64,000 nt of DNA. Source: Escherichia phage vB_EcoS_HdH2. Within the stretch, counting starts at the first letter, position 1. Each line of letters starts with the position of its first letter. Shown piece by piece: positions 1,342-28,463 of this stretch. The translations under genes were made by a program, and so were the position numbers. The notes below the pieces were generated by a model. It saw only the letters and a program-made list of their open reading frames with translations, made no database searches and was not told where the DNA came from. The stretch lies in the sequence record NC_048748.1; one strand, written 5' to 3'.

Positions 1342-1851
1342 TTAATAAGGGATATTAAATTCTTTACACTTTGATTTAACCCATTCTAAAAGAATAGATA
1401 AATCATAATTGCCTTTTGAAACATATTTATTTGTTATAGGGTTTTTAATTTTTGCCCTGTAATATTCTCCCGCTATGGGATCAACTTTATCAAGATAAAT
1501 ATATTTCGGTAGTTTATTACGCCTTTTATAATCACTCTTATTTGTCATATTAACCGCATGAGTAACTAGGCGTAAATTATTTATATCGTTGTTAACGGGG
1601 TAAGAAATTATTTTATGATCTATATCTAAATCAGGGTTAATTTCTTTATTAAATAAAACCCAAATTAAACGATGAGCTTTATATAATTCACCATTAATCA
1701 TTACATCATAATAGCCTGTCTGATTTAATGTTCCCGCTACACTTCCAGCTTTCACACCGGGCTTACTTATTTTCCATCGTAAAAATGATGGGCTAGATTC
1801 ATCATAATAAACATTCTCGTTAACTTCATTAAAATCTATTTCTTTTGCCAT
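1342..1851 (-). CDS. HNH homing endonuclease
   Basis: YYDESSPSFLRWK ... IDHKI...NNDINNLRLVTHAVN pattern typical of phage HNH_3 endonucleases. Confidence 0.65.
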   Translation of the reverse strand: MAKEIDFNEVNENVYYDESSPSFLRWKISKPGVKAGSVAGTLNQTGYYDVMINGELYKAHRLIWVLFNKEINPDLDIDHKIISYPVNNDINNLRLVTHAVNMTNKSDYKRRNKLPKYIYLDKVDPIAGEYYRAKIKNPITNKYVSKGNYDLSILLEWVKSKCKEFNIPY

Positions 1852-1921
1852 TTATATTCCTCCAATTAATATTATCTCATTAATTGGAGGATTTAGGCAA
1901 ATAAGGTTTTAATTTATCGGC

Positions 1922-3595
1922 TTACTGTACAAAGAATTTACCGTTCTTAAAGTCGATCAAAGTACGCTGGCCGTTCGCATAGGTAATAACATGCGTTTGC
2001 GTCCAGCTTGACGCGCCAACGTTGTAACCCATATCCAGACTACCAGACACGCCGGCAGTGTATACGCCGCCGTAAATGCTGGCGGTGTGAGTGTGCCCCG
2101 TGTTTAATTTGCCCAATTTCTTAAATTGCTTCGGATTGCCACGGCTCCCGTTAATGCCATTGTGACCGTGTACGCCGCATTCAATGCCTGCAATTTTAAA
2201 TGATTGGTCAGTGGTCAGGAAAATAGCGTTAAATTCACAACCTGCAACCTTGCGCAGCGCATAATCTAGCACGTTGAAAGTATCGTCTTTTTCTGCAATA
2301 GCTCCGTAAATCGCAGCATTAAGGCGGTGATATAGTTCCGCGTTGGCTGGATCGTCTTTAATGTTAGCATTACGATCATCAAGCCAACGGGATAACGCCA
2401 GATCATGGTTAGATTCAACAATGATCGTTTGAGCAAAATCGCGCTCCATTGATTCCAGTACGCGCCCGGTATCGATCAAATCATCAATAACCTTATCACG
2501 TCCGGCGGCGTATTGTTTTGCTAGGAATACACCAGACGCACGATTATGATGATTGCGTGATGTAAAATCATGCACGTCATGCACAAACTGATATTTTGGC
2601 TTCAGAATATCAACAAGCCCGTAGGTGTCACCATGCCCCCACGACGCAGCGGCGCACTCCTCATCTAATTTTTCAGCGTGAATATCGCCATATTGTAAAC
2701 CTAAAACGTGCCCCGTTGTTTCATAGCATCCGGCGGGAGTGGCGCAAATATTCAAATCGTAAAACATGCCGCTTTCGTCCATCGTTTCAAGCTGGCGAAC
2801 AAAAAATTCCCCGTCCTCGTCGAACTCAACGACAAGCGCACCAAAGTTATGTAGCGCCTCGGCCTTTTGCCCTGCTTTCTGCTGGATGTAGTTTTTAAGC
2901 GTTGCCGTGCCCGTTGAATACATGCGGCGCACTACTTCACCTTTTAAAGCTGGCACGCTTTCGGCGGTGATTTTAGCCGCCCCGATTGCCAGACCTTCCA
3001 GATTAAGCGCCGTTGCAGTTTCAGCGAATCCAGAAAGCGGATAATCTGCGGTAGGTAACACGTTAATCTCCGCCATGAAAGCAAAACGGCGATTATTTAA
3101 AAACACGTTTTTGCTGCAAATATATTTATCAAATGCAGAATCATATTTGATTCCGTCCGCGCCCTCACCATTTTGGAATCCGTTTTTATTATAAATATAC
3201 TTAGAAACAAGCAAATCAGCGCCGATAAACTGGGCATATTGTTCAAGCGAGGCTAAAAAGTTTTTATGCGGGAAAGTATTATTCTGAATCGAGGTAATAA
3301 TAAAGCGTTTGCCTTGTTTTACTTCCCAGCTTTCCACCGTGCTAGAAATAACTCCGGCGGCTTCAGGGCGGTCATCGTTTTTAATAGCTTTTACAGTTTT
3401 TGCCGCTTTTGGTTTCGCTGGTTTATTTGCTTCCAGCCAATCACAAATAGCGGTGGAATGCTTTGGAGTATCGTAAACCGCTTTCGAAATATCGTCGCAT
3501 ACTTCCAGTTTAGTAGCGCGCAGACGTTTACCATAGAAATTGAAGTCAGCGGCAAGGTTCAGGATAACGGTTTGTTTTTCTGCGGAAATAATCAT
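1922..3595 (-). CDS. A1: Pre-early protein A1 (metallophosphoesterase-like)
   Basis: 557 aa; GDIH and HGHNG...GHTH phosphoesterase-like motifs; size and position match T5 A1. Confidence 0.7.
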   Translation of the reverse strand: MIISAEKQTVILNLAADFNFYGKRLRATKLEVCDDISKAVYDTPKHSTAICDWLEANKPAKPKAAKTVKAIKNDDRPEAAGVISSTVESWEVKQGKRFIITSIQNNTFPHKNFLASLEQYAQFIGADLLVSKYIYNKNGFQNGEGADGIKYDSAFDKYICSKNVFLNNRRFAFMAEINVLPTADYPLSGFAETATALNLEGLAIGAAKITAESVPALKGEVVRRMYSTGTATLKNYIQQKAGQKAEALHNFGALVVEFDEDGEFFVRQLETMDESGMFYDLNICATPAGCYETTGHVLGLQYGDIHAEKLDEECAAASWGHGDTYGLVDILKPKYQFVHDVHDFTSRNHHNRASGVFLAKQYAAGRDKVIDDLIDTGRVLESMERDFAQTIIVESNHDLALSRWLDDRNANIKDDPANAELYHRLNAAIYGAIAEKDDTFNVLDYALRKVAGCEFNAIFLTTDQSFKIAGIECGVHGHNGINGSRGNPKQFKKLGKLNTGHTHTASIYGGVYTAGVSGSLDMGYNVGASSWTQTHVITYANGQRTLIDFKNGKFFVQ

Positions 3596-3692
3596 AGTAA
3601 TAAAGCTCCATTAAAGGGATTAAAAACGTTTGTTATTGGCAAATATTGCCAGATATAACGCCGCTTATTTACAGCGTTATAACTTGCAATAT

Positions 3693-3938
3693 TTAACTAA
3701 TCGGCATAAGGCTAGAACTAACACCACAAGCAACGGCGGCAATAAAGCAAAGTAAGCCCAACCGCTTTGCTAATTTAGATTTACGTTTAAAATAATATGA
3801 ATCTAAATCATTTTGAAAATAAGCGAACAATAATGAGGCCGCTACAATAAATAAGCCTAAAATTAGCGATTCAGTGGGGTAAAAGATCATTTTAATAACT
3901 CCAGTCAAAGGGAAATTATAGTGGGGAATATTCCCCAC
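3693..3938 (-). CDS. small membrane protein
   Basis: 81 aa with two hydrophobic segments. Confidence 0.4.
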   Translation of the reverse strand: MGNIPHYNFPLTGVIKMIFYPTESLILGLFIVAASLLFAYFQNDLDSYYFKRKSKLAKRLGLLCFIAAVACGVSSSLMPIS

Positions 3939-3947
3939 TAATTAAAT

Positions 3948-4355
3948 TTATTCGCCTGCGGCTTGTTTTACTTCATCGGCAACGCCTAACAGCTGCGCCA
4001 CGGCGTCCAACGTTTCTAATTTTGCGCTTTCCAGTGATGCCAGATCGTCAACGTCTTTGATAATGCCGGAATCAATGGCATGTTTAGCGATAACACGCAC
4101 ATAATGCGCTTTACGAATGGAACTGCCGCCGCCAACTTTACGCGGCTTATCGCTTTTCTGATACGCTTTCGCGCTGGTCAATTTTGAGCGAACGGACACG
4201 GGGGAGGCCGCACCTACTGCTTTCGCAATCTCTTTCAAGCCGTCGCTATTTGCGAAATCTAAACCGTTTTCATTGATTAGCTGCTGATACATGGAAACAG
4301 CCTGCTGGGTGTTTTCTTCATTCCAAGAAAATTTTGCGGTTTTAACGTTAGTCAT
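3948..4355 (-). CDS. pre-early protein, possible A2 homolog (DNA-binding)
   Basis: 135 aa, immediately downstream of A1 as in T5; identity inferred from position and size. Confidence 0.5.
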   Translation of the reverse strand: MTNVKTAKFSWNEENTQQAVSMYQQLINENGLDFANSDGLKEIAKAVGAASPVSVRSKLTSAKAYQKSDKPRKVGGGSSIRKAHYVRVIAKHAIDSGIIKDVDDLASLESAKLETLDAVAQLLGVADEVKQAAGE

Positions 4356-4456
4356 GATTATAACTCCTATTGAATTAATTTAAGGGATAAGATTAACATA
4401 ATGTTAATCGTTATATCCCCCGAACTACTGGGGGATATAAAAGTAACACTATAAAC

Positions 4457-4708
4457 TTATGCTACAGCTTCCCATTTTTCGTTACGCTGGATAACCTTTA
4501 CAGCGTCGCCGGATTTAACCCGAACGCTATAAATAGTTTTTCCGTTGTTACTCCGTTCCGTTTCAGCGTATACCGCATCAATTACATCAAACGGCATAAG
4601 CGCCGCGCCTTTGATGCGTTCGGTTTTTCCGGTTGCCTCATCCGTTTTAGTAACGAAAGGAATAAAAACGGATTGACCAATTTTAGGCGCATTAGTAACG
4701 TTTTGCAT
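4457..4708 (-). CDS. hypothetical protein
   Basis: 83-aa ORF. Confidence 0.4.
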   Translation of the reverse strand: MQNVTNAPKIGQSVFIPFVTKTDEATGKTERIKGAALMPFDVIDAVYAETERSNNGKTIYSVRVKSGDAVKVIQRNEKWEAVA

Positions 4709-4909
4709 AGTATAAACTCCAGTTTATTTAGTGGATTGTTCCGCATTACCTGCTGTAAAAGTAGTGGCAGGTAATAAGTAACAATCCGCTCGCCATTATA
4801 ATCAATTTAAGGAACTCCACTCAGGCCGCTATATCCCAGTTAGGGGGCGGGGCACATTATGGCAAGTACCGGCCGTCAAATTTTATCAAGTTATCGCTCT
4901 CATCGAACT

Positions 4910-4933
4910 GGGTACATCTTAAAGCCTATCGGC
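4910..4933. repeat. Left arm of 24-bp inverted repeat flanking ORF 4941-5144
   Basis: gggtacatcttaaagcctatcggc; reverse complement recurs at 5179-5202 with 1 mismatch. Confidence 0.6.
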
Positions 4934-4940
4934 TAGGGTG

Positions 4941-5144
4941 TCAAACAATTTTTTGCAGTTTTTTATGATTCTCTTTCAAGTCAATCATAATATTGCGCCA
5001 GATCATTTCCAACCCTTGCTGGCGGCCTTTCTTGTACTGCGTGAATCTATATTTTACGGATTGCTGAGCTATTGTCAACAATTTTTTAGTAGTACCATCC
5101 AATTTTTTGGCTGGTTTACCAGTTATTAAAAGCGTTTGTTTCAT
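4941..5144 (-). CDS. small basic protein (IR-flanked)
   Basis: 67 aa, Lys/Arg-rich; sits between the 24-bp inverted repeats. Confidence 0.4.
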   Translation of the reverse strand: MKQTLLITGKPAKKLDGTTKKLLTIAQQSVKYRFTQYKKGRQQGLEMIWRNIMIDLKENHKKLQKIV

Positions 5145-5178
5145 ATCTGCGATTCCTTATATAATTGATAAGTTTACC

Positions 5179-5202
5179 GCCGATAGACTTTAAGATGTAC
5201 CC
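5179..5202. repeat. Right arm of 24-bp inverted repeat
   Basis: gccgatagactttaagatgtaccc. Confidence 0.6.
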
Positions 5203-5639
5203 AATTTTTAAAGAGCGCGGCGGTAAACTTTCCCGCCGTGTAGTTCGTCATTGCCGCCCTACGAGATAAATAATAGGGGATACCCAAAAATGGCGCAACC
5301 TTATTTTTGTAAAGAAATGTAAAGAAGGCAACACGCCCGGCGCTCACATAAGTTTAAAGGAAACGGGCGCGCGGATACCACAAAACACAGCAGATAGGCA
5401 AGTAATTTTTTCATTTATATTTGCCTTGCCCTACTTGACAAAACTTAAAAAGCTCGTGGTAGCGATAAACGAGGGTAGGCAATGCAATGGCATACCTGAA
5501 AATTTTACCGCTTTCTAGGGCGTTTTAGGCGGCCTAAAATTGATTTAACAAATATTTAACAACTGCAAAATTGAAAAATAGTTGGAAAAGGTATTGACTT
5601 TTAAAAATCAAGACTAAATGAGTTATTTTATAAAATTAA

Positions 5640-5987
5640 TTAATTGACTTTCTTTTTATATTGTGAAGGCCGGTTTTTATTGTTTTCGGCCTGCGTTACT
5701 TGTCTAAGGTTATCCCCTTTATTATTTAGCTTGTTACGATCAATATGATCAATCATTAGATTACTATCTATTTCACCATGTAATAGTAACCATACGACAC
5801 GATGTACTAAATAACATTCTTTATTAAGTCGAACGATATAATAACCTTGTGAATAGTAAGTACCTGCAACTGTATCTTTCCTAACTCTTCCCTTATTGAC
5901 TTTCCAGCGTAGTGACGTTTTCGATGTTTCATCATAATAAAAGTAATGATTAAACAAGTCATAATCCATTTCTTTATATTTACCCAT
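5640..5987 (-). CDS. HNH homing endonuclease
   Basis: YYDETSKTSLRWK ... IDHIDRNKLNN...NLRQVT; paralogous in pattern to 1342-1851. Confidence 0.6.
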   Translation of the reverse strand: MGKYKEMDYDLFNHYFYYDETSKTSLRWKVNKGRVRKDTVAGTYYSQGYYIVRLNKECYLVHRVVWLLLHGEIDSNLMIDHIDRNKLNNKGDNLRQVTQAENNKNRPSQYKKKVN

Positions 5988-6042
5988 TGTTATAGTTTCC
6001 TTATGTTATTAATTTAATCTCTATTATATTATATCAAAACCA

Positions 6043-6115
6043 TTAGCAGACTACCTAATGAGTTTTTCAAGTTTAATTAGCAGACTACTAATCCCGGAAA
6101 ATCTCATTAGCCAAC
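6043..6115. repeat. Three direct repeats of attagc(a/c)(g/a)actac motif
   Basis: ttagcagactacc, ttagcagactact, ttagccaactaact read in tandem. Confidence 0.45.
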
Positions 6116-6251
6116 TAACTATTTCTTGAGTTATAATATAAATATAAATTAATGAGAAATAATCACTATAAAAATAATCACTACGATAATAATAACAACA
6201 AGAAACTATCGGCCTAAGTGAGAACCACTATCATTTAAGTTATTCACAAAG

Positions 6252-6321
6252 TTATCCACAGCACAAAATGATTTGACACGATAGGCGGCGATATACGGGC
6301 TTATCCACAGACTTATCCACA
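6252..6321 (+). promoter_or_regulatory. Three DnaA-box consensus sites (TTATCCACA)
   Basis: ttatccaca at 6252-6260, 6301-6309, 6313-6321. Confidence 0.6.
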
Positions 6322-6347
6322 GGTTATCCTACTGTATAAATATACAG
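6308..6347. repeat. Left 40-bp inverted repeat (includes palindrome ctgtataaatatacag) bracketing the 6.3-9.4 kb segment
   Basis: Reverse complement of 9374-9413 with about 3 mismatches. Confidence 0.65.
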
Positions 6348-6614
6348 GGTAGAAAGGTAGTGTTAACGACTGCAATCAATTTTATGCCGCCTAAAACGCT
6401 TTCTAACGAGCTAAATGCGGTGGGGTAATATTAAAGTAAAGCCGCAACGCGTCGCCCTGGTGGCTTCGCCGTGTTTTGCTCTTTACTATGCCGCTGCGCG
6501 GTTAGCATAAAACTAGGTGTTAGGCAAGGAAAATAAAAAGGTAAAATAATATTTGCCCCTAGAAAGAAAATACCTTTATCATTCACTCACCGATTAACGA
6601 GGGAGGCCGAACAA

Positions 6615-7592
6615 ATGAGGCTTTATAAACCAGATAACGCAACCGTCTTAAAAGGTGCATTGCGCAACCTGCTGGATGGTAGCAGAACAACCAGCATTAA
6701 ACACTTTGTTAACAAGGCCGAAGATATTCACCAAAATTTTTTTGATGATTTCGACGCCTATGATATGAGTAGCTTTTTGCAACTATATAAGCAAGGGGCA
6801 ACGATTATCTTATATAATCGAGATAATCACCTGCTTACTAGCAGGGGGCCGGACACTGATTTCATAATCGTAAAAGGTAACACAGTAAAAGCCTATGATA
6901 CTGGGGCGGGCTTAGAAGTTTTTTCAATAGAAAACTATGAAGCCAACCCCAATGATCTTTATGACGTTGAAAACTTTCTTGATTCATTTTGGCGTTATTT
7001 ATCCGTTGGCTGGAATCGGTCAATTGGTGACGGGTATCGTCTGGCGGCTGTAATGGCTTTTGATGATAACGGTAATTTTTTGTTACCGTCGGAAGTATAC
7101 CCATACGTATATGATGGGGATATAGAAAGCGCGGGCTTTTCTTTCTGGAAGGAGGAGGATCAGCCTATTGACAACACGGAAAAACATGCTGTAAATTCTA
7201 ACACTCAAACCATTGAAAACAAAGGAAAAAATGCCATGACCAAGATCGCTAATATCGTTGCCGCTAATAAGTCCGCCGTTGTAAATGCTGCAAAACTGGA
7301 AGCGGGTAAAATTGCACTGACTCAAATTACGAAAGTAGCGGCTAAAAAAGCACCGTTTATTATCAAGGGTTATATTGATACGCCGATTGGTCGGGTAGTG
7401 ATTGCCAACCTGCTGAGCGTAGCGGTTGACCAGTACTCCCCTAGCAACCAAAAGGCGAAAGCGGTAGCGGATGCAGCTATGGAAGCGGCTATGTTAGAAA
7501 TGGTACAAAGTTTTAACATCGCTGAAATGATTGACGAAATGGTGAAAGGTATTGATATTTCTACTTTTACCGTTAACACCGAAAACGAGTAA
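6615..7592 (+). CDS. hypothetical protein
   Basis: 325-aa ORF, RBS gagggagg upstream; Ala/Lys-rich C-terminal half. Confidence 0.55.
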   Translation: MRLYKPDNATVLKGALRNLLDGSRTTSIKHFVNKAEDIHQNFFDDFDAYDMSSFLQLYKQGATIILYNRDNHLLTSRGPDTDFIIVKGNTVKAYDTGAGLEVFSIENYEANPNDLYDVENFLDSFWRYLSVGWNRSIGDGYRLAAVMAFDDNGNFLLPSEVYPYVYDGDIESAGFSFWKEEDQPIDNTEKHAVNSNTQTIENKGKNAMTKIANIVAANKSAVVNAAKLEAGKIALTQITKVAAKKAPFIIKGYIDTPIGRVVIANLLSVAVDQYSPSNQKAKAVADAAMEAAMLEMVQSFNIAEMIDEMVKGIDISTFTVNTENE

Positions 7593-7630
7593 TAGTTAAC
7601 CTAGTGTAAAGTTTTGTAAAGGTCGCCATA

Positions 7631-7657
7631 ATCGGCGACCTTTTTTGTTATAATGCC
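7631..7657 (+). terminator. Rho-independent terminator
   Basis: ggtcgccataatcggcgacc hairpin followed by tttttt. Confidence 0.6.
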
Positions 7658-7710
7658 TTTACACCGTTCGAGGACGGTTGAAAATTTTCCCAAAAATTTG
7701 GAGGCTTAAA

Positions 7711-7941
7711 ATGGTTGCTTATTCTTCTTCTGACTCTCTTTTCACTGGAAAAGGTTGGGTGTCCAATCGCTGGATCATTCAAGAAATGGTGCAAGAATAC
7801 GGCATTGCTAAAACTTACACTACCATTCAGGCGCTTTATGATAATGATCAGATTGATCAGCAGACAGCTGGCTTTTTGCTGGATACCCTGAAGGCGGAAC
7901 ATTGTACTAAAAAACAAGCCGCCAAAATCGTTTTAATGTAA
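7711..7941 (+). CDS. hypothetical protein
   Basis: ORF 7678-7941 trimmed to the ATG preceded by ggagg. Confidence 0.45.
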   Translation: MVAYSSSDSLFTGKGWVSNRWIIQEMVQEYGIAKTYTTIQALYDNDQIDQQTAGFLLDTLKAEHCTKKQAAKIVLM

Positions 7942-7983
7942 TTAATAACGGGGCGTTATTTTCGCCCCACTAACTAGGAGAAT

Positions 7984-8139
7984 GAAAATGGTTATTTTTC
8001 GAGCTATTCTGGCGGGTATCTTGGGCGCTATTTTATCTTTGTTTGCAATAGCTTTCGACGTTCACGCGGTTATTATTGGCGCGGGTATCGCTGTTTTTTC
8101 TTATTTGCTGGGCTGCATGAATAAAGGAGAATAAAAATG
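7984..8139 (+). CDS. small hydrophobic peptide (about 51 aa)
   Basis: Below the 60-aa ORF-track cutoff; aggag RBS; hydrophobic. Confidence 0.35.
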
Positions 8140-8349
8140 ATCCGCAACGTTTCTCTTGCTCGTTCAAAAGGTTTTAAGCTGGTGGACGTTAACACGTTCG
8201 AACGGGAAGATTGTAAAATCGAATATATAGCACGGAATAAAAACGCCTTCCGTGTTACAGAAAAGAAATTCGATAAACGGGGTAACGTGATAGCTGAAAC
8301 GGTTAAATATTTTGCCACCTTTTACGCTGCGTTTCGTGGGGTACTATGA
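8137..8349 (+). CDS. hypothetical protein
   Basis: 70 aa; aaaggag RBS. Confidence 0.45.
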   Translation: MIRNVSLARSKGFKLVDVNTFEREDCKIEYIARNKNAFRVTEKKFDKRGNVIAETVKYFATFYAAFRGVL

Positions 8350-8472
8350 AAAGCGTTATTGTTATTCTCCTTGCAATGGTTGGCGGTTTTACCGCCACCT
8401 TATTTAAGAATGATCCCCTTTTACTGGGGATTTTTATGCTTTTATCTGGTTATCTGATCGGGAGGTTATAAA
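8346..8472 (+). CDS. small hydrophobic peptide (about 41 aa)
   Basis: Read from sequence; start overlaps previous stop (ATGA). Confidence 0.3.
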
Positions 8473-8817
8473 ATGGTAATTTATGAGGGCAACCGCTTTG
8501 TTACTAATTGCCGCCCGGCATTATTAGCAAACTACTTAAACCAGCTTTCACCTGAATATAAGGGCGTTGTTAATATTTACGAGGGAAAAGCGCATTATAA
8601 GATTAATGCGGTCGTTGCCCGTGAACTAGCATTTCAATTTTTGACCTTCGCATCGTGTGATATTCAGGTCATGGGTGAAGCATTAATAGCAGAAAATGAA
8701 GACGATTTTATTAATATTTTCCGCAAGGTATGCACCGAGCGCCTGATCATGAAAGGTGTATATATTCAATCAACGGCGGAAAGTATTGAAACGGCTTTTC
8801 GAAAGGTGGCACAATGA
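8473..8817 (+). CDS. hypothetical protein
   Basis: 114 aa; gggagg RBS. Confidence 0.5.
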   Translation: MVIYEGNRFVTNCRPALLANYLNQLSPEYKGVVNIYEGKAHYKINAVVARELAFQFLTFASCDIQVMGEALIAENEDDFINIFRKVCTERLIMKGVYIQSTAESIETAFRKVAQ

Positions 8818-8918
8818 GATTATATATTTTCGCGGGTAATGTTGAGGCTGCAAATGATTCCGCTGGTGGCGATAATGTTCGCCACTATTGGCAAAAATAT
8901 ATTTACTAGGAGCTATAT

Positions 8919-9114
8919 AATGGGCAAGAATATTATTGTGACCAAAATCAGTACAATGGTTGACGTTTTTTACGTGCCCGATACGCCAGAAAACCGGCAA
9001 GCGGTCGAGCGGGGCGATTATGGTAGCGTTATTTATGATCACGATGGCTATTATCGGCATTTGGTCGATTCCTATGGGGAGGAGGAGAAGATCACGCATC
9101 GACTACCAGACTAA
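8919..9114 (+). CDS. hypothetical protein
   Basis: ORF 8839-9114 trimmed to the ATG after taggag. Confidence 0.4.
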
Positions 9115-9191
9115 TAATCACGGGGCGCAACTATCAGGGAGTGCCCCAATTCCCAAATGAGAATCATTCTCATTTGACCGCGCCCGTGATG

Positions 9192-9251
9192 GTTAGCCCG
9201 CTAACGATTAGGGTGTTACGTGTTGCCTTGTGTGATCGTTAGCGGGCTAAC
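9192..9251. repeat. 17-bp inverted repeat hairpin (gttagcccgctaacgat / atcgttagcgggctaac), each arm internally palindromic
   Basis: Read directly. Confidence 0.6.
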
Positions 9252-9373
9252 TAATTTTTAAGCCTCCTCCAATTTTGCCCTTGTTTTAGTATCCCCACCA
9301 AAATTAAACGCGTTAGAATGCGATTCAGGACGTTTTAGCGGTATATTAGAATTATTCACTACATAGGAATACT

Positions 9374-9413
9374 GTATAAATATACAGTAGGATAAGCTGT
9401 GGATAAGTCTGTT
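9374..9413. repeat. Right 40-bp inverted repeat with DnaA boxes (TGTGGATAA at 9399-9407 and 9472-9480)
   Basis: Reverse complement of 6308-6347. Confidence 0.65.
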
Positions 9414-9675
9414 AATAACGCCTCAAAATGGCTAGGATTCTGTCAAGTCAAATCGTGCTGTTAATAAGTCTGTGGATAACTTAAATAACAGTGTTTCTCA
9501 CTTCCATTCTTAAACGAGAATGATTCTCATTTGCATTCCACTGTCTAACCGATAATCATTTCCTTTCTTAAATGAGAATCATTTCACTTTTTGAATAGTT
9601 CTCATTTCACTTCTTAAATGAGAATCATTATCATTCGCATTCCACTTCTTAAATGATAATGATTCTCATTCAAAG

Positions 9676-9695
9676 TCGCAGGGCAATTGCCCTGC
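9676..9695. repeat. Perfect 20-bp palindrome cgcagggcaattgccctgcg
   Basis: Read directly. Confidence 0.6.
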
Positions 9696-9700
9696 GCTTT

Positions 9701-10438
9701 TGTGCAAATCCGACATGTGCTCCAAGGGTTACGTGCTGGCGTGTATGTGCAAATCCGACAATTTTTGGTAGTGTGCAAATCCGACCCGAAAAATTTATAA
9801 ATTCGTGAGAGTGACGAATCTGTCTCCTAAAAACTCCAGCAATCACGAACTGCGTTCGAATCCTGTGGAATTAGCTAGAGTATGTGCAAATCCGACATGT
9901 GTTGAGCTGTGCGAATCCGATGAAATTTTTGTGACTTCGATGAGAGGGTGTGTGATTGTATAGGTTTGAGGAGAAGATGAGAGAGCGAGAAAAATTTGGG
10001 AGGCTAGAAGGATGTGGGTGCAGGATTGGTGCGGAGCACCTGATTTGCGGGGATTTTGGGGAAGAGTTGAGAAGATTTGGGAAGATTTGAGATAGGTGCA
10101 GAAAAAGCGAAATTTTATTAGCTAAATGGGGCAAAATAGCTTGACAAGTGAAAATTCTTGTGGCTCTAAAAACTCAGGCAATCATGGGCCTTCGGCCCGA
10201 AATAATGCTGCCATTTTCAAGAGATTATATGTTCCTAAAAACTTAGGCGTTTGTGCAAATCCGACCATAAATTTCTAGAAATGCAGTGTGCAAATCCGAC
10301 AGTAATTTCTGGAAATGTGTTTTCAAAAAATGTCTCCTAGAAATAACCGCCCTCCCTATAACCGCCCTGTATAGGAAAACCGGCCTAGGATATTTATAGT
10401 AGATGAGAAACTGCCCTAGAACATGTGCAAATCCGATT
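9701..10438 (+). repeat. Array of at least 7 copies of TGTGCAAATCCGA(C/T) in non-coding DNA
   Basis: Copies at 9701, 9746, 9772, 9883, 10252, 10287, 10425 (degenerate 9908); one extra copy inside a CDS at 12127. Confidence 0.65.
9960..10130 (+). repeat. Polypurine (G/A-rich) tract, almost C-free on the plus strand
   Basis: Strong strand composition asymmetry; ORF 9871-10134 here is low-complexity and probably spurious. Confidence 0.5.
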
Positions 10439-18105: not shown

Positions 18106-18402
18106 TTAGTCTTCTGGATTATCATCCAGGAAATTTTTAATAGCTTCGTGCATAGTTTCTTTACGAAGCTGACGTCCAATCAAAATATGGTTAGCTTCTA
18201 CTCGACCATTAGGTAAGCGATCTGCCAGAACTACTACAGGAACTTGGCGCACACCAAATTTCTGCATTAATTCTGTATTATCAGTCTCTTTGTGGACTTC
18301 CAAATTATAGTCATTGACTACTTTATCAAATACTGGCTCGAAAAGAGCACAAGGACGACACGTGGAACCTTTTAATAAATAAATAACTTTGCTCATATAC
18401 AC
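18106..18402 (-). CDS. thioredoxin/glutaredoxin-like protein
   Basis: 98 aa with CRPC (CxxC) redox motif near the N-terminus. Confidence 0.5.
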   Translation of the reverse strand: MYMSKVIYLLKGSTCRPCALFEPVFDKVVNDYNLEVHKETDNTELMQKFGVRQVPVVVLADRLPNGRVEANHILIGRQLRKETMHEAIKNFLDDNPED

Positions 18403-18409
18403 TCCTATT

Positions 18410-18949
18410 TTACTTGTTAAGCTCTTCTAAATCTGGTATATATCCAAGAAACTCCTCAATTAAAGCGTACTCCCCAGCAATCTCCTGTCTAGACTTATTC
18501 GCTAAGTCTACTGCCAGAGCTAAGTCTTCATAATTGAAGGTTCCTTTCATACGTTTTCGGCCTGTTTCATCCGTAATTTGAACTCTCCATTTCTGCCTAT
18601 CTTTAGCCCACATAACATTTGCATATCCGGATTTGGACTTTTTATGCTTTTTATTACGACAATTTTGTGGTTTAGATGCAGAACGTAAATTTTTCCATCG
18701 GTTATTTTGTGGATTTCTATCTATATGATCCACAAATTCAGGTATATATCCTTCCATATATAGGAAGGCCCATCTATGGGCTCCCTGCCTCTCCCCTTCC
18801 ACCATTATCATTATGTAATCATTGTTGTACAGGGTTCCAGCTTCCATTCCCCTCTTTACATACTGATTATTACCATCTATCTTCCAGGTAAATATCCCGG
18901 TTTCTGGATTATAGTCCAGAAATTCCTTTAATCTTTCTTGTGTTATCAC
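18410..18949 (-). CDS. HNH homing endonuclease with AP2-like domain
   Basis: HIDRNPQNNRWKNLR HNH motif plus C-terminal AP2-like segment. Confidence 0.65.
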   Translation of the reverse strand: MITQERLKEFLDYNPETGIFTWKIDGNNQYVKRGMEAGTLYNNDYIMIMVEGERQGAHRWAFLYMEGYIPEFVDHIDRNPQNNRWKNLRSASKPQNCRNKKHKKSKSGYANVMWAKDRQKWRVQITDETGRKRMKGTFNYEDLALAVDLANKSRQEIAGEYALIEEFLGYIPDLEELNK

Positions 18950-19374
18950 AATTTATTAATGGCCTCTAAGAAGTTTTTCATAGTTTTTACGGTTGCGGTG
19001 CTCAGATCAAGATTTACACCCAAACACTCGGTTAATGCTTCCTGATAAGGAGCCTTTAATCTGCCTTCTGGGACTTCTACCTTTTTATATTCTTTATTTT
19101 TGACCTTTTTAATCATAGTCTCTAGTACAAGAAGTGGTAATTTAGCACCTTCAATATCAGTACCCAAAAGTTCAGTTAAAATTTTATTAAGATCAAGACG
19201 AGTTAACTTTTTGCCCTTAGACATAGATGCACCTACCTTTGTATCAATAGATTTTTCCGCTTTCTTTTCGAGCTTTTTGTACTCAGGAGAGTCATGATCA
19301 CGGAGTGCAATGTTTAGCTCGTAATGTGGTATACGAAAATGTTCCGCCATTTGAGTATAGAAACGATCAGACAT
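18946..19374 (-). CDS. hypothetical protein
   Basis: 142 aa. Confidence 0.45.
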   Translation of the reverse strand: MSDRFYTQMAEHFRIPHYELNIALRDHDSPEYKKLEKKAEKSIDTKVGASMSKGKKLTRLDLNKILTELLGTDIEGAKLPLLVLETMIKKVKNKEYKKVEVPEGRLKAPYQEALTECLGVNLDLSTATVKTMKNFLEAINKL

Positions 19375-19449
19375 AATATATACCTCTCTTAACTAATTTA
19401 TGTATATATTATATAATAACTAGGGCTAAAAGTCAACTACTTTTTTATC

Positions 19450-19866
19450 TTAATCTACTGCATGGATAAATCTTTTCCTAACTAGATACATAGTTATTGG
19501 GTAAATTGAGTACATAAGTATCGGGGAGAAAAGGGTGAAATATGCTGTAACTCCCCCAGCTAACATCAAAGGTATTAATGCTAGAGTAAGGGCCATAAGA
19601 ATCATGCCGAATGAAACAGCCAAAGCTATGGATATAGGATTCTCTAGTTCCATCCATAACCAACAATATTTCGTATCTCTATGGCAATTGCATTTACAAA
19701 CGCCGAATGAACCCATAATTATATACTCTAGTCCGTGAATAACCTTTATTAATAAGCTATTTCGGGTAGTTAATGCAAGGATAGTAAAGACTATCATTAA
19801 AACGAATACTACTAGACTTATTTTCCAGATACCTAGCAGCATCATAGTGAATAGTTCTGCAAACAT
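19450..19866 (-). CDS. integral membrane protein
   Basis: 138 aa, multiple hydrophobic helices. Confidence 0.45.
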   Translation of the reverse strand: MFAELFTMMLLGIWKISLVVFVLMIVFTILALTTRNSLLIKVIHGLEYIIMGSFGVCKCNCHRDTKYCWLWMELENPISIALAVSFGMILMALTLALIPLMLAGGVTAYFTLFSPILMYSIYPITMYLVRKRFIHAVD

Positions 19867-19943
19867 GGCTTTCTCCTATCTTCAAAAATTATTAAAGCCC
19901 CCTTTGCCTAAAAAGGCGGGAATATTCCCGCCTCAGTTATTAA

Positions 19944-26045: not shown

Positions 26046-26121
26046 TTCAAACCTCTCTCATCAATTTATAAATATATTATAGCAAGAAAAGAGAGGTTTA
26101 GCAAATGAATTATTTCAGAAT

Positions 26122-26469
26122 TTAGTCATAGCACCACCATAACCCACGCTTACGCATGTCATGATCGCGATTATAGTCGTAATTTTCTGGGTCTTTCATC
26201 ACGCGGTGGAGTTCTTGACGATTCCCTTGACGAACCATTTTATTAGAATGCCACTTAACATTCTTACTAACAGAATTCCAGCTATAACCATCCTTTTTCT
26301 CATTACGAATGGTTGCTTCTTCCATTTCCTGTTCTACCTCATCCCAGGATTTAGCATAAGTAACACGAATCCAGTAGCCACTTGCTTTGAGGAAAGTATA
26401 TCCCTGGGTGTAATTAGCTTTAGACTTCCACCACTGATCACCAGATTGTTTACGATAAGTACGGCTCAT
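26122..26469 (-). CDS. hypothetical protein
   Basis: 115 aa, Trp-rich. Confidence 0.4.
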   Translation of the reverse strand: MSRTYRKQSGDQWWKSKANYTQGYTFLKASGYWIRVTYAKSWDEVEQEMEEATIRNEKKDGYSWNSVSKNVKWHSNKMVRQGNRQELHRVMKDPENYDYNRDHDMRKRGLWWCYD

Positions 26470-26548
26470 ATTACCTCCATTAAGTCTTTTAAATTAACCT
26501 AATGTGGATGAATTTTATTATACATAAATTATTTACCTGTATATAGAA

Positions 26549-26582
26549 AAACCCCAGACTACTTATTCAATAGCTGGGGTTT
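26549..26582 (-). terminator. Rho-independent terminator (minus strand)
   Basis: aaaccccagctattgaataagtagtctggggttt hairpin. Confidence 0.5.
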
Positions 26583-26590
26583 GTTATTAA

Positions 26591-26905
26591 TCACAGATCG
26601 GGGCGTTCATCTTCGAAACAGCCTGAGCTAATTCCTTCTCCGAATCCTACAAAGCCATCAAATTCATCATTTGAAATATCCGTAATCATTGCTTCCATTT
26701 TCCTAATTTCCGAGGTTTTCATCCCTGCTTTACTATTCTTAAAGTGTTTGCGAGGATTCCCACACATCCAACAAGAACAGATACAAGGAGTAGTAGTGAT
26801 AATACCTAACCGTTTAGGGCTTTCTTCATGTGGGAAGACTGTCCAGTATTTCTTGCGGTTGTTCTTCACACGTTGCCGGTGATGACGTCTTAATGCTCGA
26901 TCCAC
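26591..26905 (-). CDS. Cys-rich hypothetical protein
   Basis: 104 aa; CICSCWMC motif. Confidence 0.4.
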   Translation of the reverse strand: MDRALRRHHRQRVKNNRKKYWTVFPHEESPKRLGIITTTPCICSCWMCGNPRKHFKNSKAGMKTSEIRKMEAMITDISNDEFDGFVGFGEGISSGCFEDERPDL

Positions 26906-26986
26906 ACATTTCTCCTAAAACTTGGGAGATAAATGGAGTTTGCTCGACTACCTTACGTAGTTCGTAGAAACCGTATCCAAGCCCCA

Positions 26987-27355
26987 TTACATCGCCTGAG
27001 TAAATGTACGACTAATAACATCGTTCTGTTGTTCACGCGTCAGTGCATTAAAACGTACAGCGTACCCTGAAACACGGATAGTTAATTGAGGGTATTTTTC
27101 AGGATGTTTCTGTGCATCCAAAAGCTGATCACGACTTAACACATTGACGTTTAGGTGTTGACCACCTTCAATTTGAGGGGCGACTTCCACCTTGACTTCA
27201 CGAAAGGACTCTGGGTCAAAGTGAGGTGTGATACCTTCTAGATCCTCAACTAGAACTTTTTGTTTAAGTTCACCATCTTTAGAGTATAATTGAATAATCT
27301 GATTATTATGAACAATATTAATTACGCCAGATTTAAGATTTTGGTACGCTTTCAT
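26987..27355 (-). CDS. grcA: Autonomous glycyl radical cofactor GrcA/YfiD-like
   Basis: C-terminus [10 protein letters not shown]...[20 protein letters not shown] closely matches E. coli GrcA (as recalled) including RVSGY; start trimmed to MKAYQ (about 123 aa). Confidence 0.7.
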
Positions 27356-27540
27356 TAGATCTCCTGTTTGGTAGTTAGTAGTGGATTTGAACCACTGTAG
27401 TCGCTCCGTATGAAGGAGGTGCATAACCACTCTGCCAACTAACTATTATGTTTTACTAGACTAAGTAAGTATTCTTTATACTCTTTAGACCAATTAGCTT
27501 TTTTAAACTTTCCTGGACGCATAGTCTTAATTCCTAAATT

Positions 27541-27617
27541 TGGTACTCCGGGAGGGATTTAAACCCCCGATCTCTCGGTTATCAGCTGAGTGCTTTAGAT
27601 CGCTAAGCTACCGAAGC
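27541..27617 (-). tRNA. tRNA, anticodon GAT (Ile) by manual fold
   Basis: Encoded CCA; acceptor with 2 G-U; T arm GGGGG/TTTAAAT/CCCTC. Confidence 0.45.
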
Positions 27618-27632
27618 ATTAAAATATTTACA

Positions 27633-27938
27633 TCACACACTGTCTAAGTAAGAAGTATAATGGAATTTAGTTTCTCCAGTCTTATCTACTTCTACCTCAG
27701 TTCGTGGTACTTGACGCACTATACCATGAATCATCTTATAGCGAATGCCTTTAGCTGGTTCATGATCTTTTGGAAATACTTGTTTAACCGTTACTACTTT
27801 ATACTCTTCACGCGGGGTTAGCACAACTACTTGATCACCTTCTTTGATTTTCCAAGAAGATGGAAATTCATAGGTATATCTTTGGCCACTAGTTTGGAAT
27901 ACTACAGAAAGATAACGTTTCATTTGGTTTCCTCTCAT
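27633..27938 (-). CDS. hypothetical protein
   Basis: 101 aa. Confidence 0.45.
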   Translation of the reverse strand: MRGNQMKRYLSVVFQTSGQRYTYEFPSSWKIKEGDQVVVLTPREEYKVVTVKQVFPKDHEPAKGIRYKMIHGIVRQVPRTEVEVDKTGETKFHYTSYLDSV

Positions 27939-27996
27939 TAATTTATATAAATATTATAGCAATAAATAAGAGAGAAAGCAAATGAATTTTTAAATT

Positions 27997-28071
27997 TGGT
28001 GCTCCCACCAGGAATCGAACCCGGTTCCACGGTTTACAAGACCGTTGCATCGCCAGCAATGCTTTAAGAGC
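27997..28071 (-). tRNA. tRNA-Thr (anticodon TGT)
   Basis: GGTTCGATTCC T-loop, CCA encoded, loop CTTGTAA. Confidence 0.55.
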
Positions 28072-28463
28072 TATCGTTGTCTTGTTGAAACTCTATTTCT
28101 GGCCCTATGCGTAGGGGTCATAGAGTGACAGTTAGGGCAGAGAATCTTTAGATTTTCTGGAGAACAGTTAGTTGCATCTCCATCTATATGATCTACCTCA
28201 GTTAAAACTGCTCCGTCAATTGGATGTTTCCCATCCCAACCACATACTTCACAAGCAGTACCACGAGTATCCCACAGCCACTTCCTAACAAAAGGTTTTA
28301 ATTGTGCAGCTTTACCAGTATAACCAGGTTCTTCACCTGCCAACCACTTTAATACTTTTTGCTTTGTCTGGTACTCCTGCTGACAAGCAGGACCACAATA
28401 CTTACCTGCGGAGCCCCTACTTTTAGGTTTTGTGATTCCGCAATTTAAACAAGTAAACTCCAT
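28071..28463 (-). CDS. HNH endonuclease
   Basis: EVDHIDGDATNCSPENLKILCPNCH HNH core plus N-terminal Cys-rich region. Confidence 0.65.
   Translation of the reverse strand: MEFTCLNCGITKPKSRGSAGKYCGPACQQEYQTKQKVLKWLAGEEPGYTGKAAQLKPFVRKWLWDTRGTACEVCGWDGKHPIDGAVLTEVDHIDGDATNCSPENLKILCPNCHSMTPTHRARNRVSTRQR

What the first reader, a model, noticed from the sequence alone, without database searches (positions are those of the whole stretch)
1342..28463. At least four free-standing HNH endonuclease genes
HNH genes at 1342-1851, 5640-5987, 18410-18949 and 28071-28463 lie between conserved genes and next to the tRNA cluster. This is consistent with homing endonucleases acting as mobile elements; two (1342 and 5640) look paralogous.
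Basis: partly seen in the sequence, partly recalled or inferred. Interest (0 to 1): 0.35.

Follow-up and report, generated by a model that had tools for sequence, protein, structure and literature searches.

The report
Four mobile HNH endonuclease genes
The window is the left end of a T5-like phage, and it carries four small selfish nuclease genes (HNH homing endonuclease genes) wedged between ordinary genes, a well-known and already annotated feature of this phage group, so the finding is real but ordinary.

Summary

- **Source.** The window is the left ~64 kb of a Tequintavirus (T5/BF23-like, ~90-92% identity).
- **Domains.** All four ORFs, at the exact coordinates given, pass Pfam HNH thresholds. 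No other HNH gene is detectable in the window.
- **Insertions.** Against BF23 each ORF is a clean 400-580 bp intergenic insertion.
- **Rarity.** Each is rare among relatives. HNH1 is in 17 of 314 records and HNH3 in 11 of 286. The exact HNH2 form is in 2 records. HNH4 is in about 7 of 439.
- **Recent spread.** The genes are 97-100% identical in phages whose flanks are only 75-93% identical. For HNH3 this contrast depends on which partner is compared.
- **Linked alleles.** HNH3 and HNH4 are tied to distinctive alleles of the adjacent thioredoxin 5' end and tRNA-Thr anticodon arm.
- **Relationships.** HNH1 and HNH2 are paralogues of T5 hegG (45% identical to each other). HNH2 lacks the C-terminal domain. 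HNH3 is hegE-like. HNH4 is a zinc-finger HNH.
- **Prior knowledge.** HNH1, HNH2 and HNH3 are already annotated as homing endonucleases in GenBank relatives. HNH4 copies there are unannotated or 'hypothetical'. The phenomenon is described for T5-like phages.
- **One less ordinary result.** HNH4's family sits in tRNA clusters across unrelated phages, preferentially next to tRNA-Thr(UGU).

No cleavage activity was tested.

The parts
1342..1851 (-). HNH1: 169-aa HNH_3 endonuclease gene. It is a paralogue of T5 hegG (P-TflVII, 54% aa) and sits between the A1 gene and the T5.002 homologue, inside the inferred left terminal repeat.
   Evidence: Pfam HNH_3 at 26.8 bits and phrog_99 at E = 8e-37. It is 100% aa identical to the SHSML-45 'homing endonuclease'. 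15 of 17 carrier records are at least 99% nt identical.
1349..1929 (.). HNH1 insertion block. BF23 has 48 bp of unrelated spacer here, and T5 and SP15 carry a different 92-aa ORF (T5p003).
   Evidence: blastn breakpoints against BF23, T5, SP15 and vB_Sen_I1; junction sequences.
1858..1891 (-). Perfect 14-bp hairpin whose 3' arm contains the GGAGG ribosome-binding site of HNH1. A promoter-like -10 element (GATAAT with an upstream TG) lies in its loop. It may act as a translational throttle (inferred).
   Evidence: Fold energy -22.9 kcal/mol, z = -4.1; promoter-like site at 1900-1871 on the minus strand.
5640..5987 (-). HNH2: 115-aa HNH_3 gene at the hegG locus of T5. It is a hegG-type gene that lacks the ~55-aa C-terminal domain of full-length relatives. 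The catalytic motif is intact.
   Evidence: Pfam HNH_3 at 58.8 bits. Alignment with T5p009, NR01, EC100 and HNH1, with no C-terminal remnant downstream. Only vB_Sen_I1 and vB_Sen_H9 carry this form, at 99.7%.
5532..6075 (.). HNH2 replacement block in the divergent pre-early intergenic region. BF23 and SP15 have ~205 bp of other sequence here.
   Evidence: blastn breakpoints. Identity is 97-100% to vB_Sen_I1 across 5500-6100, against 77-93% in the flanks.
18410..18949 (-). HNH3: 179-aa HNH_3 gene with an AP2-like C-terminal domain. It is 49% identical to T5 hegE (F-TflV) but sits at a different locus. Its GTG start overlaps the stop codon of the upstream gene (GTGA).
   Evidence: Pfam HNH_3 at 51.1 bits and phrog_99 at E = 3e-57. 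Present in 11 of 286 relatives. Junctions. Structure model and weak AP2-type matches.
18398..18952 (.). HNH3 insertion block. In T5 and BF23 the two flanking genes overlap directly at this point (1 bp between the alignment ends).
18343..18402 (-). First ~60 nt of the thioredoxin gene, including the CxxC-coding part. All HNH3 carriers share a block of about 17 substitutions here that empty-site alleles lack. This is a candidate target or immunity region (inferred).
   Evidence: Alignment of 3 HNH3+, 2 empty and 3 alternative-HNH alleles.
28071..28463 (-). HNH4: 130-aa gene with an N-terminal four-Cys zinc ribbon and a CxxC...DH...N...CxxCH HNH domain. Its stop codon overlaps base 1 of tRNA-Thr.
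   Evidence: Pfam HNH at 23.6 and HNH_3 at 24.9 bits; phrog_1271 and phrog_2255. Weak match to the McrA HNH domain. 99% aa identical in Epseptimavirus PMBT27, MET_P1_137_112 and MET_P1-88.
28075..28472 (.). HNH4 insertion block. T5, BF23, SP15 and vB_Sen_I1 have 8-10 bp here.
27997..28071 (-). tRNA-Thr(UGU) allele linked to HNH4. Its anticodon stem is ACGGT/ACCGT, against GTTGC/GCATC in all HNH4-less alleles examined except two. It also has T5 where the others have C5.
   Evidence: ARAGORN; allele alignment. The database is bimodal, with 11 records at 95-99% and 626 at 80-90%. Two HEG-less phages carry the same anticodon arm.

Best explanation
These are four free-standing homing endonuclease genes (HEGs) of a T5-like phage: selfish DNA that has settled in intergenic positions without breaking its neighbours.

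**Proposed mechanism (inferred, not shown).** When this phage co-infects a cell with a relative that lacks one of the genes, the encoded HNH (His-Me finger) nuclease nicks or cuts the relative's DNA. The cut falls at a specific site close to the empty insertion point. Recombinational repair from the HEG-carrying genome then copies the HEG and a few hundred bp of flank into the recipient. The carrier is protected because the sequence next to its own HEG differs at the target.

**What each gene is.**
- HNH1 and HNH3 are I-HmuI-type (HNH_3) enzymes with a C-terminal DNA-binding module. They are relatives of T5 hegG and hegE.
- HNH2 is a hegG-type gene that lacks that module. It may be a decaying or passively transferred copy.
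- HNH4 is a zinc-finger HNH. Its whole family lives in phage tRNA clusters, and its likely target is the adjacent tRNA-Thr(UGU) gene.

**Shown here:** domains, insertion anatomy, sporadic distribution, recent horizontal spread and linked flank alleles.

**Inferred:** cleavage, target positions and homing itself.
For: **Domains.**
- Pfam HNH_3 or HNH above the cut-off for all four; PHROG HNH families.
- The D-H...N...N residues align with I-HmuI.

**Insertion anatomy.**
- Clean indels against BF23, T5 and SP15, with intact neighbouring genes.

**Sporadic presence.**
- HNH1 in 17 of 314 records, HNH3 in 11 of 286, the exact HNH2 form in 2 records, and HNH4 at 99% aa or more in 7 records against 439 that share the locus.
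- The window lacks every T5 heg gene at its T5 locus except a variant at the hegG site.

**Gene much more conserved than its flanks.**
- HNH1 is 99.8% identical to SHSML-45 where the median 500-nt window is 91%. None of 433 windows is as high.
- HNH2 is 99.7% identical to vB_Sen_I1, with a median of 93%. Only 1.2% of windows are as high.
- HNH4 plus tRNA-Thr are 97-99% identical to two Epseptimavirus genomes whose flanks are 75-86%.
- HNH3 is 97.6% identical to Kenya-K38, with flanks at 84-86%.

**Recurrent invasion of the same sites.**
- Three HNH_3 lineages occupy the site upstream of thioredoxin.
- Full-length and short hegG types occupy the hegG site.

**Linked flank alleles.**
- Thioredoxin 5' block.
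- tRNA-Thr anticodon arm.

**HNH4 family context.**
- Of 66 distinct homologues on diverse viral contigs, 49 have a same-strand tRNA within 150 nt.
- In 31 the stop codon abuts a tRNA 5' end.
- The nearest tRNA is Thr(UGU) in 21 of 64, against 10% of all tRNAs in those loci.
- The same adjacency holds in Sugarlandvirus, Asteriusvirus and Mydovirus phages.

**Literature.**
- HEGs are named as the main source of differences among T5-like genomes (PMC10644984).
- T5 F-TflI, II and IV are HNH endonucleases in the tRNA region (Akulenko 2004, cited in PMC2330249).
- A variable HNH HEG has been reported in a new Tequintavirus (PMC12639943).
Against: - No enzymatic activity, cleavage site or biased inheritance was or could be tested here.
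- T5-like genomes are mosaics anyway: 1.6-3.4% of windows reach 99% identity or more without any HEG.
- HNH3's 96.9% identity to SHSML-45 is matched by 11% of windows.
- HNH2 lacks the C-terminal domain of full-length relatives and occurs in only two other records. It may not be an autonomous homing enzyme.
- The HNH4-linked tRNA-Thr anticodon arm also occurs in two phages without the HEG. It may therefore be hitch-hiking background rather than the immunity determinant.
- HNH1's Pfam score is only just above the cut-off (26.8 against 24.8).
- Sequence matches to solved structures are weak (E = 0.01-0.6).
Confidence: 0.8

Rival explanations
1. The presence/absence pattern comes from ordinary recombination and deletion in a mosaic phage population. 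On this reading the HNH genes are passive cargo or relics, not the drivers of their own spread.
For: - High-identity blocks occur elsewhere without any HEG. For example, 19400-19900 is 98-100% identical to SHSML-45.
- 1.6-3.4% of windows reach 99% identity or more.
- HNH2 is truncated.
- HNH3's identity to SHSML-45 is not exceptional.
Against: - All four genes coincide with identity peaks that decay within ~100-300 bp.
- HNH1 is nearly identical in 15 records from two genera, while their flanks are 80-90% identical.
- Independent HNH lineages have repeatedly landed at the same junctions.
- ORFs and catalytic residues are intact.
Confidence: 0.12
2. Some of the genes are domesticated and serve the phage. 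HNH1 and HNH2 sit in the first-step-transfer (pre-early) DNA and might attack host or competitor DNA early in infection. HNH4 might, like T4 SegB, drive exchange or amplification of tRNA genes that counter tRNA-cleaving host defences.
For: - HNH1 and HNH2 lie in the terminal repeat, among the pre-early genes.
- HNH1 is present in both repeats of phage Shivani.
- The HNH4 family is tightly embedded in tRNA arrays.
- SegB amplifies tRNA and anti-defence loci and is tRNA-associated (PMC13096335).
Against: - About 95% of relatives lack each gene, so none is a core function.
- No experiment here bears on benefit to the phage.
- A selfish element can sit in any transcribed intergenic spot.
Confidence: 0.15
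3. The HNH proteins are the nickases that make the site-specific single-strand interruptions characteristic of T5-type virion DNA.
For: - I-HmuI-type HNH enzymes are nickases (established knowledge, from memory).
- T5 and BF23 DNA carry specific nicks (annotation; PMC10644984).
Against: - Nicks are a shared trait of T5 and BF23, yet these four genes are absent from both.
- heg content differs completely between genomes that share the trait.
Confidence: 0.03

Closest known systems
T5 hegG (T5p009, putative H-N-H endonuclease P-TflVII) in the left terminal repeat
   Same: - It is an HNH_3 protein.
- HNH1 is 54% identical to it over its full length.
- HNH2 is 54-57% identical over the N-terminal ~80-106 aa and occupies the same intergenic locus.
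   Different: - HNH1 sits at another locus, between A1 and T5.002.
- HNH2 lacks the C-terminal ~55 aa.
- hegG itself is only a predicted enzyme.
T5 hegE (H-N-H endonuclease F-TflV, T5.051) and BF23 hegE
   Same: HNH3 is 49% identical to both over the full length, with the same HNH_3 plus C-terminal module layout.
   Different: The loci differ: T5.050/052 in T5, next to rnh in BF23, and upstream of thioredoxin here. The target site is presumably different too.
[quoted passage not shown]
   Same: - They are free-standing HNH genes inside the tRNA cluster.
- The 3' ends of the hegC and hegD ORFs overlap the 5' end of a tRNA gene, as the HNH4 stop codon does.
- HNH4 shares its HNH zinc-finger motif with hegA, at 43% over 53 aa.
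   Different: - HNH4 has no orthologue in T5 or BF23.
- It is much shorter (130 aa against 194-227 aa), with a different N-terminal region.
- The window lacks hegA, hegC and hegD.
I-HmuI (PDB 1U3E), HNH homing nickase of Bacillus phage SPO1
   Same: It is the best, though weak, solved-structure match for HNH1 and HNH3, with the D-H...N...N catalytic residues aligned. It belongs to the same His-Me finger group 2 (PMC5714182).
   Different: - I-HmuI is intron-encoded and has a helix-turn-helix C-terminal domain.
- The genes here are free-standing. HNH3's C-terminal domain looks AP2-like, but this is not significant.
T4 SegB (GIY-YIG homing endonuclease in the T4 tRNA cluster)
   Same: - It is a free-standing HEG inside a tRNA cluster.
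- Its ORF ends at the 5' end of a tRNA, so tRNA processing cuts the mRNA.
- Its family is statistically associated with tRNA genes (PMC2330249, PMC13096335).
   Different: - It has a different nuclease fold (GIY-YIG, not HNH).
- No tRNA isotype preference was reported for SegB, whereas the HNH4 family favours tRNA-Thr(UGU).

Membership tests
HNH_3 / I-HmuI-type His-Me finger endonucleases (HNH1, HNH2, HNH3) | Match to the family profile above the curated threshold | tested here: met
   Pfam PF13392 at 26.8, 58.8 and 51.1 bits against a cut-off of 24.8. phrog_99 at E = 8e-37, 2e-35 and 3e-57.
HNH_3 / I-HmuI-type His-Me finger endonucleases (HNH1, HNH2, HNH3) | Catalytic Asp-His and metal-binding Asn residues conserved | tested here: met
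   D74/H75, N82/N83, N87 and N96 (HNH3 numbering) are invariant across HNH1-3 and two homologues. DH and the Asn residues align with I-HmuI.
HNH_3 / I-HmuI-type His-Me finger endonucleases (HNH1, HNH2, HNH3) | Separate DNA-binding module (AP2, NUMOD or HTH) conferring site specificity | tested here: inconclusive
   - **HNH3:** the model has a three-strand-plus-helix C-terminal domain at pLDDT ~68. The Pfam AP2 match is faint (E = 0.11). The best Foldseek hits are AP2 proteins but none is significant. The homologue P0004 carries Pfam AP2.
- **HNH1:** it has a conserved C-terminal domain with no family match.
- **HNH2:** the domain is absent.
HNH (PF01844) zinc-finger His-Me group 1, the group of McrA, MobA-E and F-TflIV (HNH4) | Profile match above threshold, with the CxxC...DH...N...CxxCH motif | tested here: met
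   PF01844 at 23.6 bits against 21.4. The motif is invariant in 5 homologues. Weak match to the McrA HNH domain, E = 0.011.
Free-standing homing endonuclease gene | Intergenic position, not in an intron or intein, with neighbouring genes intact | tested here: met
   Breakpoints and junction sequences against BF23, T5 and SP15.
Free-standing homing endonuclease gene | Sporadic presence among close relatives at an otherwise conserved locus | tested here: met
   17 of 314, at most 25 of 526 (exact form in 2), 11 of 286, and about 7 of 439 records.
Free-standing homing endonuclease gene | Signature of recent lateral spread: the gene and its immediate flank are more similar than the genomic background | tested here: met
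   The signal is strong for HNH1, HNH2 and HNH4. For HNH3 it is clear against Kenya-K38 but unremarkable against SHSML-45.
Free-standing homing endonuclease gene | Site-specific cleavage or nicking of the HEG-less allele near the insertion point, with the carrier allele resistant | not testable with these tools
   Only indirect evidence: carrier-specific substitution blocks in the thioredoxin 5' end and the tRNA-Thr anticodon arm.
Free-standing homing endonuclease gene | Endonuclease-dependent over-transmission in mixed infection | not testable with these tools
   Requires phage crosses.
Orthologues of the named T5 heg genes (hegA-H) | Same locus and high identity to a T5 heg gene | tested here: not met
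   - Best identities are 49-57% aa.
- Only HNH2 shares a locus (hegG), and it is truncated.
- HNH4 has no T5 counterpart.
- All four are therefore relatives, not orthologues, of the characterised F-Tfl enzymes.
SegB-type tRNA-cluster homing endonucleases | GIY-YIG catalytic domain | tested here: not met
   HNH4 matches only HNH families. The resemblance lies in genomic niche and ORF-tRNA arrangement, not in ancestry.

The most novel reading that the evidence does not exclude
HNH4 may represent a widespread, uncharacterised clade of ~130-aa zinc-ribbon-HNH endonucleases that specialise in phage tRNA genes, preferentially tRNA-Thr(UGU). On this reading the clade moves between unrelated phage families (Demerecviridae, Vequintavirinae, jumbo Asteriusvirus and many uncultured viruses). 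It carries the adjacent tRNA allele along, and so shapes tRNA arrays much as SegB does. A tRNA isotype preference has not been reported for SegB.
Probability: 0.35. Interest if true: 0.5.

Novelty: already known. Interest (0 to 1): 0.2.

Why it matters
The finding adds little on its own. Variable HNH homing endonuclease genes are a textbook source of mosaicism in T5-like phages. HNH1, HNH2 and HNH3 are already annotated as homing endonucleases in GenBank relatives.

It is useful for annotation. It explains four of the larger indels between this phage and BF23 or T5.

It also gives two concrete, cheap test cases for target-site mapping: the thioredoxin CxxC-coding region for HNH3 and the tRNA-Thr anticodon arm for HNH4.

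The family-level link between HNH4 homologues and tRNA-Thr genes could be of modest interest for how phage tRNA arrays are exchanged.

Tried and rejected
**Led nowhere or inconclusive.**
- **More HNH or other homing nucleases in the window.** tblastn with the four proteins and with 16 T5-group HNH or endonuclease proteins found none. Pfam on 20 ORFs between 30 and 47 kb found none either.
- **A remnant of the missing C-terminal domain downstream of HNH2.** tblastn with relaxed settings found nothing.
- **RBS-sequestering hairpins upstream of HNH2, HNH3 and HNH4.** Folds were no better than shuffles, with z between -1.5 and +1.3. Only HNH1 has one.
- **Sequence matches to solved structures.** Only weak ones: I-HmuI at E = 0.027 and 0.61, McrA at 0.011.
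- **Pfam on isolated C-terminal fragments.** AP2 at E = 0.11 for HNH3, nothing for HNH1.
- **Large-database homologue search for HNH1.** It returned only 4 proteins. The structure model of HNH3 was therefore shallow (pLDDT 67), and the Foldseek search gave no significant hit.

**Considered and rejected.**
- **A shared target sequence in the tRNA-Thr genes next to HNH4 homologues.** Those tRNAs are very diverse apart from the anticodon loop, so no conserved target could be read off.
- **The 140-aa ORF beside tRNA-Thr in phage STG2 as another HEG.** It is a globin-like protein.
- **Perfect linkage between HNH4 and the tRNA-Thr allele.** Two HEG-less phages carry the same anticodon arm.
- **The T5 genome-nick nickase idea.** T5 and BF23 lack all four genes.

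Full report
**What the window is.**
The first 25 kb match 570 phage records, almost all T5-like Demerecviridae. The best matches are 90-92% identical over about 90% of the query. The window is colinear with Escherichia phage BF23 from base ~41 onward. It also carries the 24-tRNA cluster typical of T5. It is therefore the left ~64 kb of a Tequintavirus genome.

By homology with the annotated repeats of BF23 (1-9743) and T5 (1-9749), roughly the first 10 kb is the left terminal repeat, which holds the first-step-transfer pre-early genes.

**Checking the observation.**
The four ORFs exist exactly as reported, all on the minus strand. All pass the curated Pfam thresholds for HNH_3 or HNH. All match PHROG 'HNH endonuclease' families. 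Their relationships are:
- HNH1 and HNH2 are 45% identical over 110 residues (E = 1e-28).
- HNH3 is about 35% identical to both.
- HNH4 is unrelated apart from the HNH motif.

In the published classification of His-Me finger nucleases, HNH1-3 fall in group 2 (HNH_3, I-HmuI-like). HNH4 falls in group 1, with McrA, MobA-E and F-TflIV (PMC5714182; for the weak structural-sequence matches).

No further HNH gene is detectable. tblastn with 16 HNH or endonuclease proteins from T5, BF23, SHSML-45, vB_Sen_I1 and SP15 hit only these four loci. Pfam scans of 20 other ORFs found none.

**Anatomy.**
Against BF23, each gene is a clean insertion or replacement:

| Gene | Window block | BF23 counterpart |
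|---|---|---|
| HNH1 | 1349-1929 | 48 bp |
| HNH2 | 5532-6075 | ~205 bp |
| HNH3 | 18398-18952 | 1 bp |
| HNH4 | 28075-28472 | 8 bp |

The junctions show that no neighbour is broken.
- **HNH3** starts with a GTG that overlaps the stop codon of the upstream gene (GTGA). It supplies a new ribosome-binding site for the thioredoxin gene downstream.
- **HNH4** begins 8 nt after the stop codon of a 54-aa ORF. Its own stop codon shares its last base with position 1 of tRNA-Thr.
- The same ORF-into-tRNA arrangement is seen for hegC and hegD in T5. It was also described for T4 segB (PMC2330249).
- **HNH1** has a strong GGAGG site buried in the 3' arm of a perfect 14-bp hairpin (-22.9 kcal/mol, z = -4.1). 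A promoter-like -10 element lies in the loop. This recalls the translational throttling known for T4 homing endonuclease genes, which I cite from memory. It is an inference only.
- **HNH2** is preceded by a TGATATAAT extended -10-like sequence (read directly).

**Relation to the named T5 genes.**
T5 carries hegA and hegC-hegH (hegG is named in the T5 rows).
- HNH1 is 54% identical to hegG (P-TflVII) but sits at another locus.
- HNH2 sits at the hegG locus. It is 54-57% identical to hegG over the N-terminal ~80-106 residues. It lacks the ~55-aa C-terminal domain that hegG, HNH1 and the NR01 and EC100 proteins share. No remnant lies downstream.
- HNH3 is 49% identical to hegE (F-TflV), which occupies other loci in T5 and BF23.
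- HNH4 has no T5 counterpart.
- The window lacks hegA, C, D, E, F and H at their T5 positions.

The heg repertoire of this phage is therefore almost completely different from that of T5 and of BF23.

**Presence and absence.**
I ran database searches with flank + gene + flank.
- **HNH1** is present in 17 of 314 records that share the locus.
- **HNH3** is present in 11 of 286.
- **HNH4** with both flanks is in none of 439 complete records, and in one small fragment record.
- **HNH2:** at most 25 of 526 records cover the locus fully. Only two records carry this exact gene.
- A protein search found HNH4 at 99% identity or more in 7 records. These include three Epseptimavirus genomes, where it sits at the same junction.

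Other phages carry different occupants at the same sites.
- Three HNH_3 lineages, 37-46% identical to each other, sit at the junction upstream of thioredoxin.
- Full-length hegG types sit at the HNH2 site.
- An unrelated 92-aa ORF sits at the HNH1 site in T5 and SP15.

**Evidence for recent lateral movement.**
Identity profiles peak on the genes and decay within 100-300 bp. The table compares each gene with the background.

| Gene | Partner | Gene identity | Background |
|---|---|---|---|
| HNH1 | SHSML-45 | 99.8% | median window 91%; 0 of 433 windows as high |
| HNH2 | vB_Sen_I1 | 99.7% | median 93%; 1.2% of windows as high |
| HNH4 + tRNA-Thr | PMBT27, MET_P1_137_112 | 97-99% | flanks 75-86% |
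| HNH3 | Kenya-K38 | 97.6% | flanks 84-86% |
| HNH3 | SHSML-45 | 96.9% | unremarkable; 11% of windows as high |

Across the database, 15 of the 17 HNH1 copies are at least 99% identical. The flanks of nearly all records are only 80-90% identical.

**Linked flank alleles.**
- **HNH3.** All three carriers examined share about 17 substitutions in the first ~60 nt of the thioredoxin gene, including the CxxC-coding part. Empty alleles share another version. SP15-type HNH carriers share a third. Beyond +65 all are nearly identical.
- **HNH4.** All carriers, in both genera, share a tRNA-Thr with a different, fully paired anticodon stem. The stem is ACGGT/ACCGT, against GTTGC/GCATC in seven HNH4-less phages of both genera. 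Carriers also have T where the others have C at position 5.
- **Database view of the tRNA-Thr allele.** The distribution is bimodal, with 11 records at 95-99% and 626 at 80-90%.
- **Imperfect linkage.** Phages smaug and phagemcphageface carry the same anticodon arm with an ancestral-looking empty junction. So the HEG is always found with this allele, but the allele is not always found with the HEG.

This fits a resistant-target model. It equally fits hitch-hiking of a donor allele, and it does not prove where the enzyme cuts.

**The HNH4 family.**
Homologues 57-73% identical to HNH4 lie directly beside tRNA-Thr(UGU) in three unrelated phages:
- a Klebsiella Sugarlandvirus;
- a jumbo Asteriusvirus;
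- a Mydovirus.

A fourth homologue, in CB7, is not next to tRNA-Thr.

I then ran a similarity-ranked sample of 80 loci from viral contigs, which gave 66 distinct proteins.
- 64 have a tRNA within 1.5 kb.
- 49 have a same-strand tRNA within 150 nt.
- 31 have their stop codon within 10 nt of, or overlapping, a tRNA 5' end.
- The nearest tRNA is Thr(UGU) in 21 of 64. Thr(UGU) makes up 10% of all tRNAs in those loci (binomial p = 6e-7).

The adjacent tRNA-Thr sequences are very diverse, so no common target can be read off.

HNH genes in tRNA arrays have been noted before (PMC5966550, PMC6409571). A tRNA association was recently shown for the GIY-YIG enzyme SegB, without isotype preference (PMC13096335). 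The Thr preference of this HNH clade is, as far as I could find, not described. It is the only part of the finding with some novelty.

**Domain architecture.**
A five-sequence AlphaFold model of HNH3 (pLDDT 67) shows the HNH core followed by a three-strand-plus-helix domain. The evidence that this domain is AP2-like is weak:
- The best Foldseek hits are AP2-domain proteins, but none is significant.
- Pfam AP2 is faint (E = 0.11).
- One homologue has a precomputed AP2 hit.

AP2 modules are known in this nuclease group (PMC5714182). The assignment is therefore plausible but not established. HNH2 lacks any such module.

**Verdict.**
Activity and homing remain untested. The phenomenon is already known:
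- HNH1, HNH2 and HNH3 are annotated as homing or HNH endonucleases in SHSML-45, Shivani, LVR16A and vB_Sen_I1. The near-identical HNH4 copies in relatives are unannotated or called 'hypothetical protein'.
- The BF23 genome paper states that homing endonuclease genes are the main source of differences among T5-like genomes (PMC10644984).

Interest is low. The tRNA-Thr-associated HNH clade is a modest lead.

Noticed in passing
window 54302-54487 (within nrdD; ORFs 53108-54430 and 54432-55079, + strand): - There is a perfect 90-nt inverted repeat, with arms at 54302-54391 and 54398-54487 separated by 6 nt.
- The right arm is native nrdD sequence. The left arm and spacer are a ~97-nt insertion that shifts the frame and splits nrdD into 440-aa and 215-aa ORFs.
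- nrdD is one 624-aa gene in BF23.
- None of 382 related records has the insertion.
- It looks like a fold-back assembly or sequencing artefact, or a very recent template-switch duplication.
   Followed up: partly
window 35146-39731: - This block is absent from BF23. It corresponds to T5.076-T5.080, with 88-98% aa identity.
- It holds a Toprim_2 ORF at 35622-36191 (-), two plus-strand ORFs without Pfam hits at 36347-37396 and 37418-37837, and an SPFH/Band-7 protein at 38163-39110 (-).
- The BF23 paper describes what appears to be this T5 region, numbered ORF071-075 in another T5 assembly, as an anti-defence island. It names the TOPRIM protein there as Rad, a retron inhibitor (PMC10644984).
- BF23 has hegA (F-TflIV) at the deletion boundary.
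   Followed up: partly
window 1858-1891 (- strand): - The ribosome-binding site of HNH1 lies in the 3' arm of a perfect 14-bp hairpin.
- A promoter-like TG-n-GATAAT lies in the loop.
- The arrangement resembles hairpin-controlled translation of T4 homing endonuclease genes (from memory).
- There is no covariation to test, because all carriers are about 99% identical here.
   Followed up: partly
window 6252-6321 (+ strand coordinates): Three exact TTATCCACA (DnaA-box consensus) copies lie at 6252, 6301 and 6313. They sit in the divergent pre-early intergenic region just beside the HNH2 block.
   Followed up: no
L017 850-1272 (Salmonella phage STG2, NC_048089.1): A 140-aa bacterial-like globin gene (Pfam Bac_globin, E = 7e-7) is inserted on the other side of tRNA-Thr in this Epseptimavirus. 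The tRNA-Thr neighbourhood is therefore a general insertion hotspot, not only for nucleases.
   Followed up: no
L102 and L103 1290-1440 (Salmonella phages smaug and phagemcphageface): These phages carry the HNH4-linked tRNA-Thr anticodon arm (ACGGT/ACCGT) but have an empty, ancestral-looking junction and C at tRNA position 5. They could be naturally resistant alleles or the lineage in which the linked allele arose.
   Followed up: partly
window 44786-45235 (-), 46069-46634 (-) and 55173-55530: There are further small differences from BF23:
- a NADAR-domain ORF at 44786-45235 that lies mostly outside the stretches that align with BF23;
- two small ORFs of 89 and 98 aa where BF23 has hegE next to rnh;
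- a ~357-bp replacement after nrdD.
   Followed up: no
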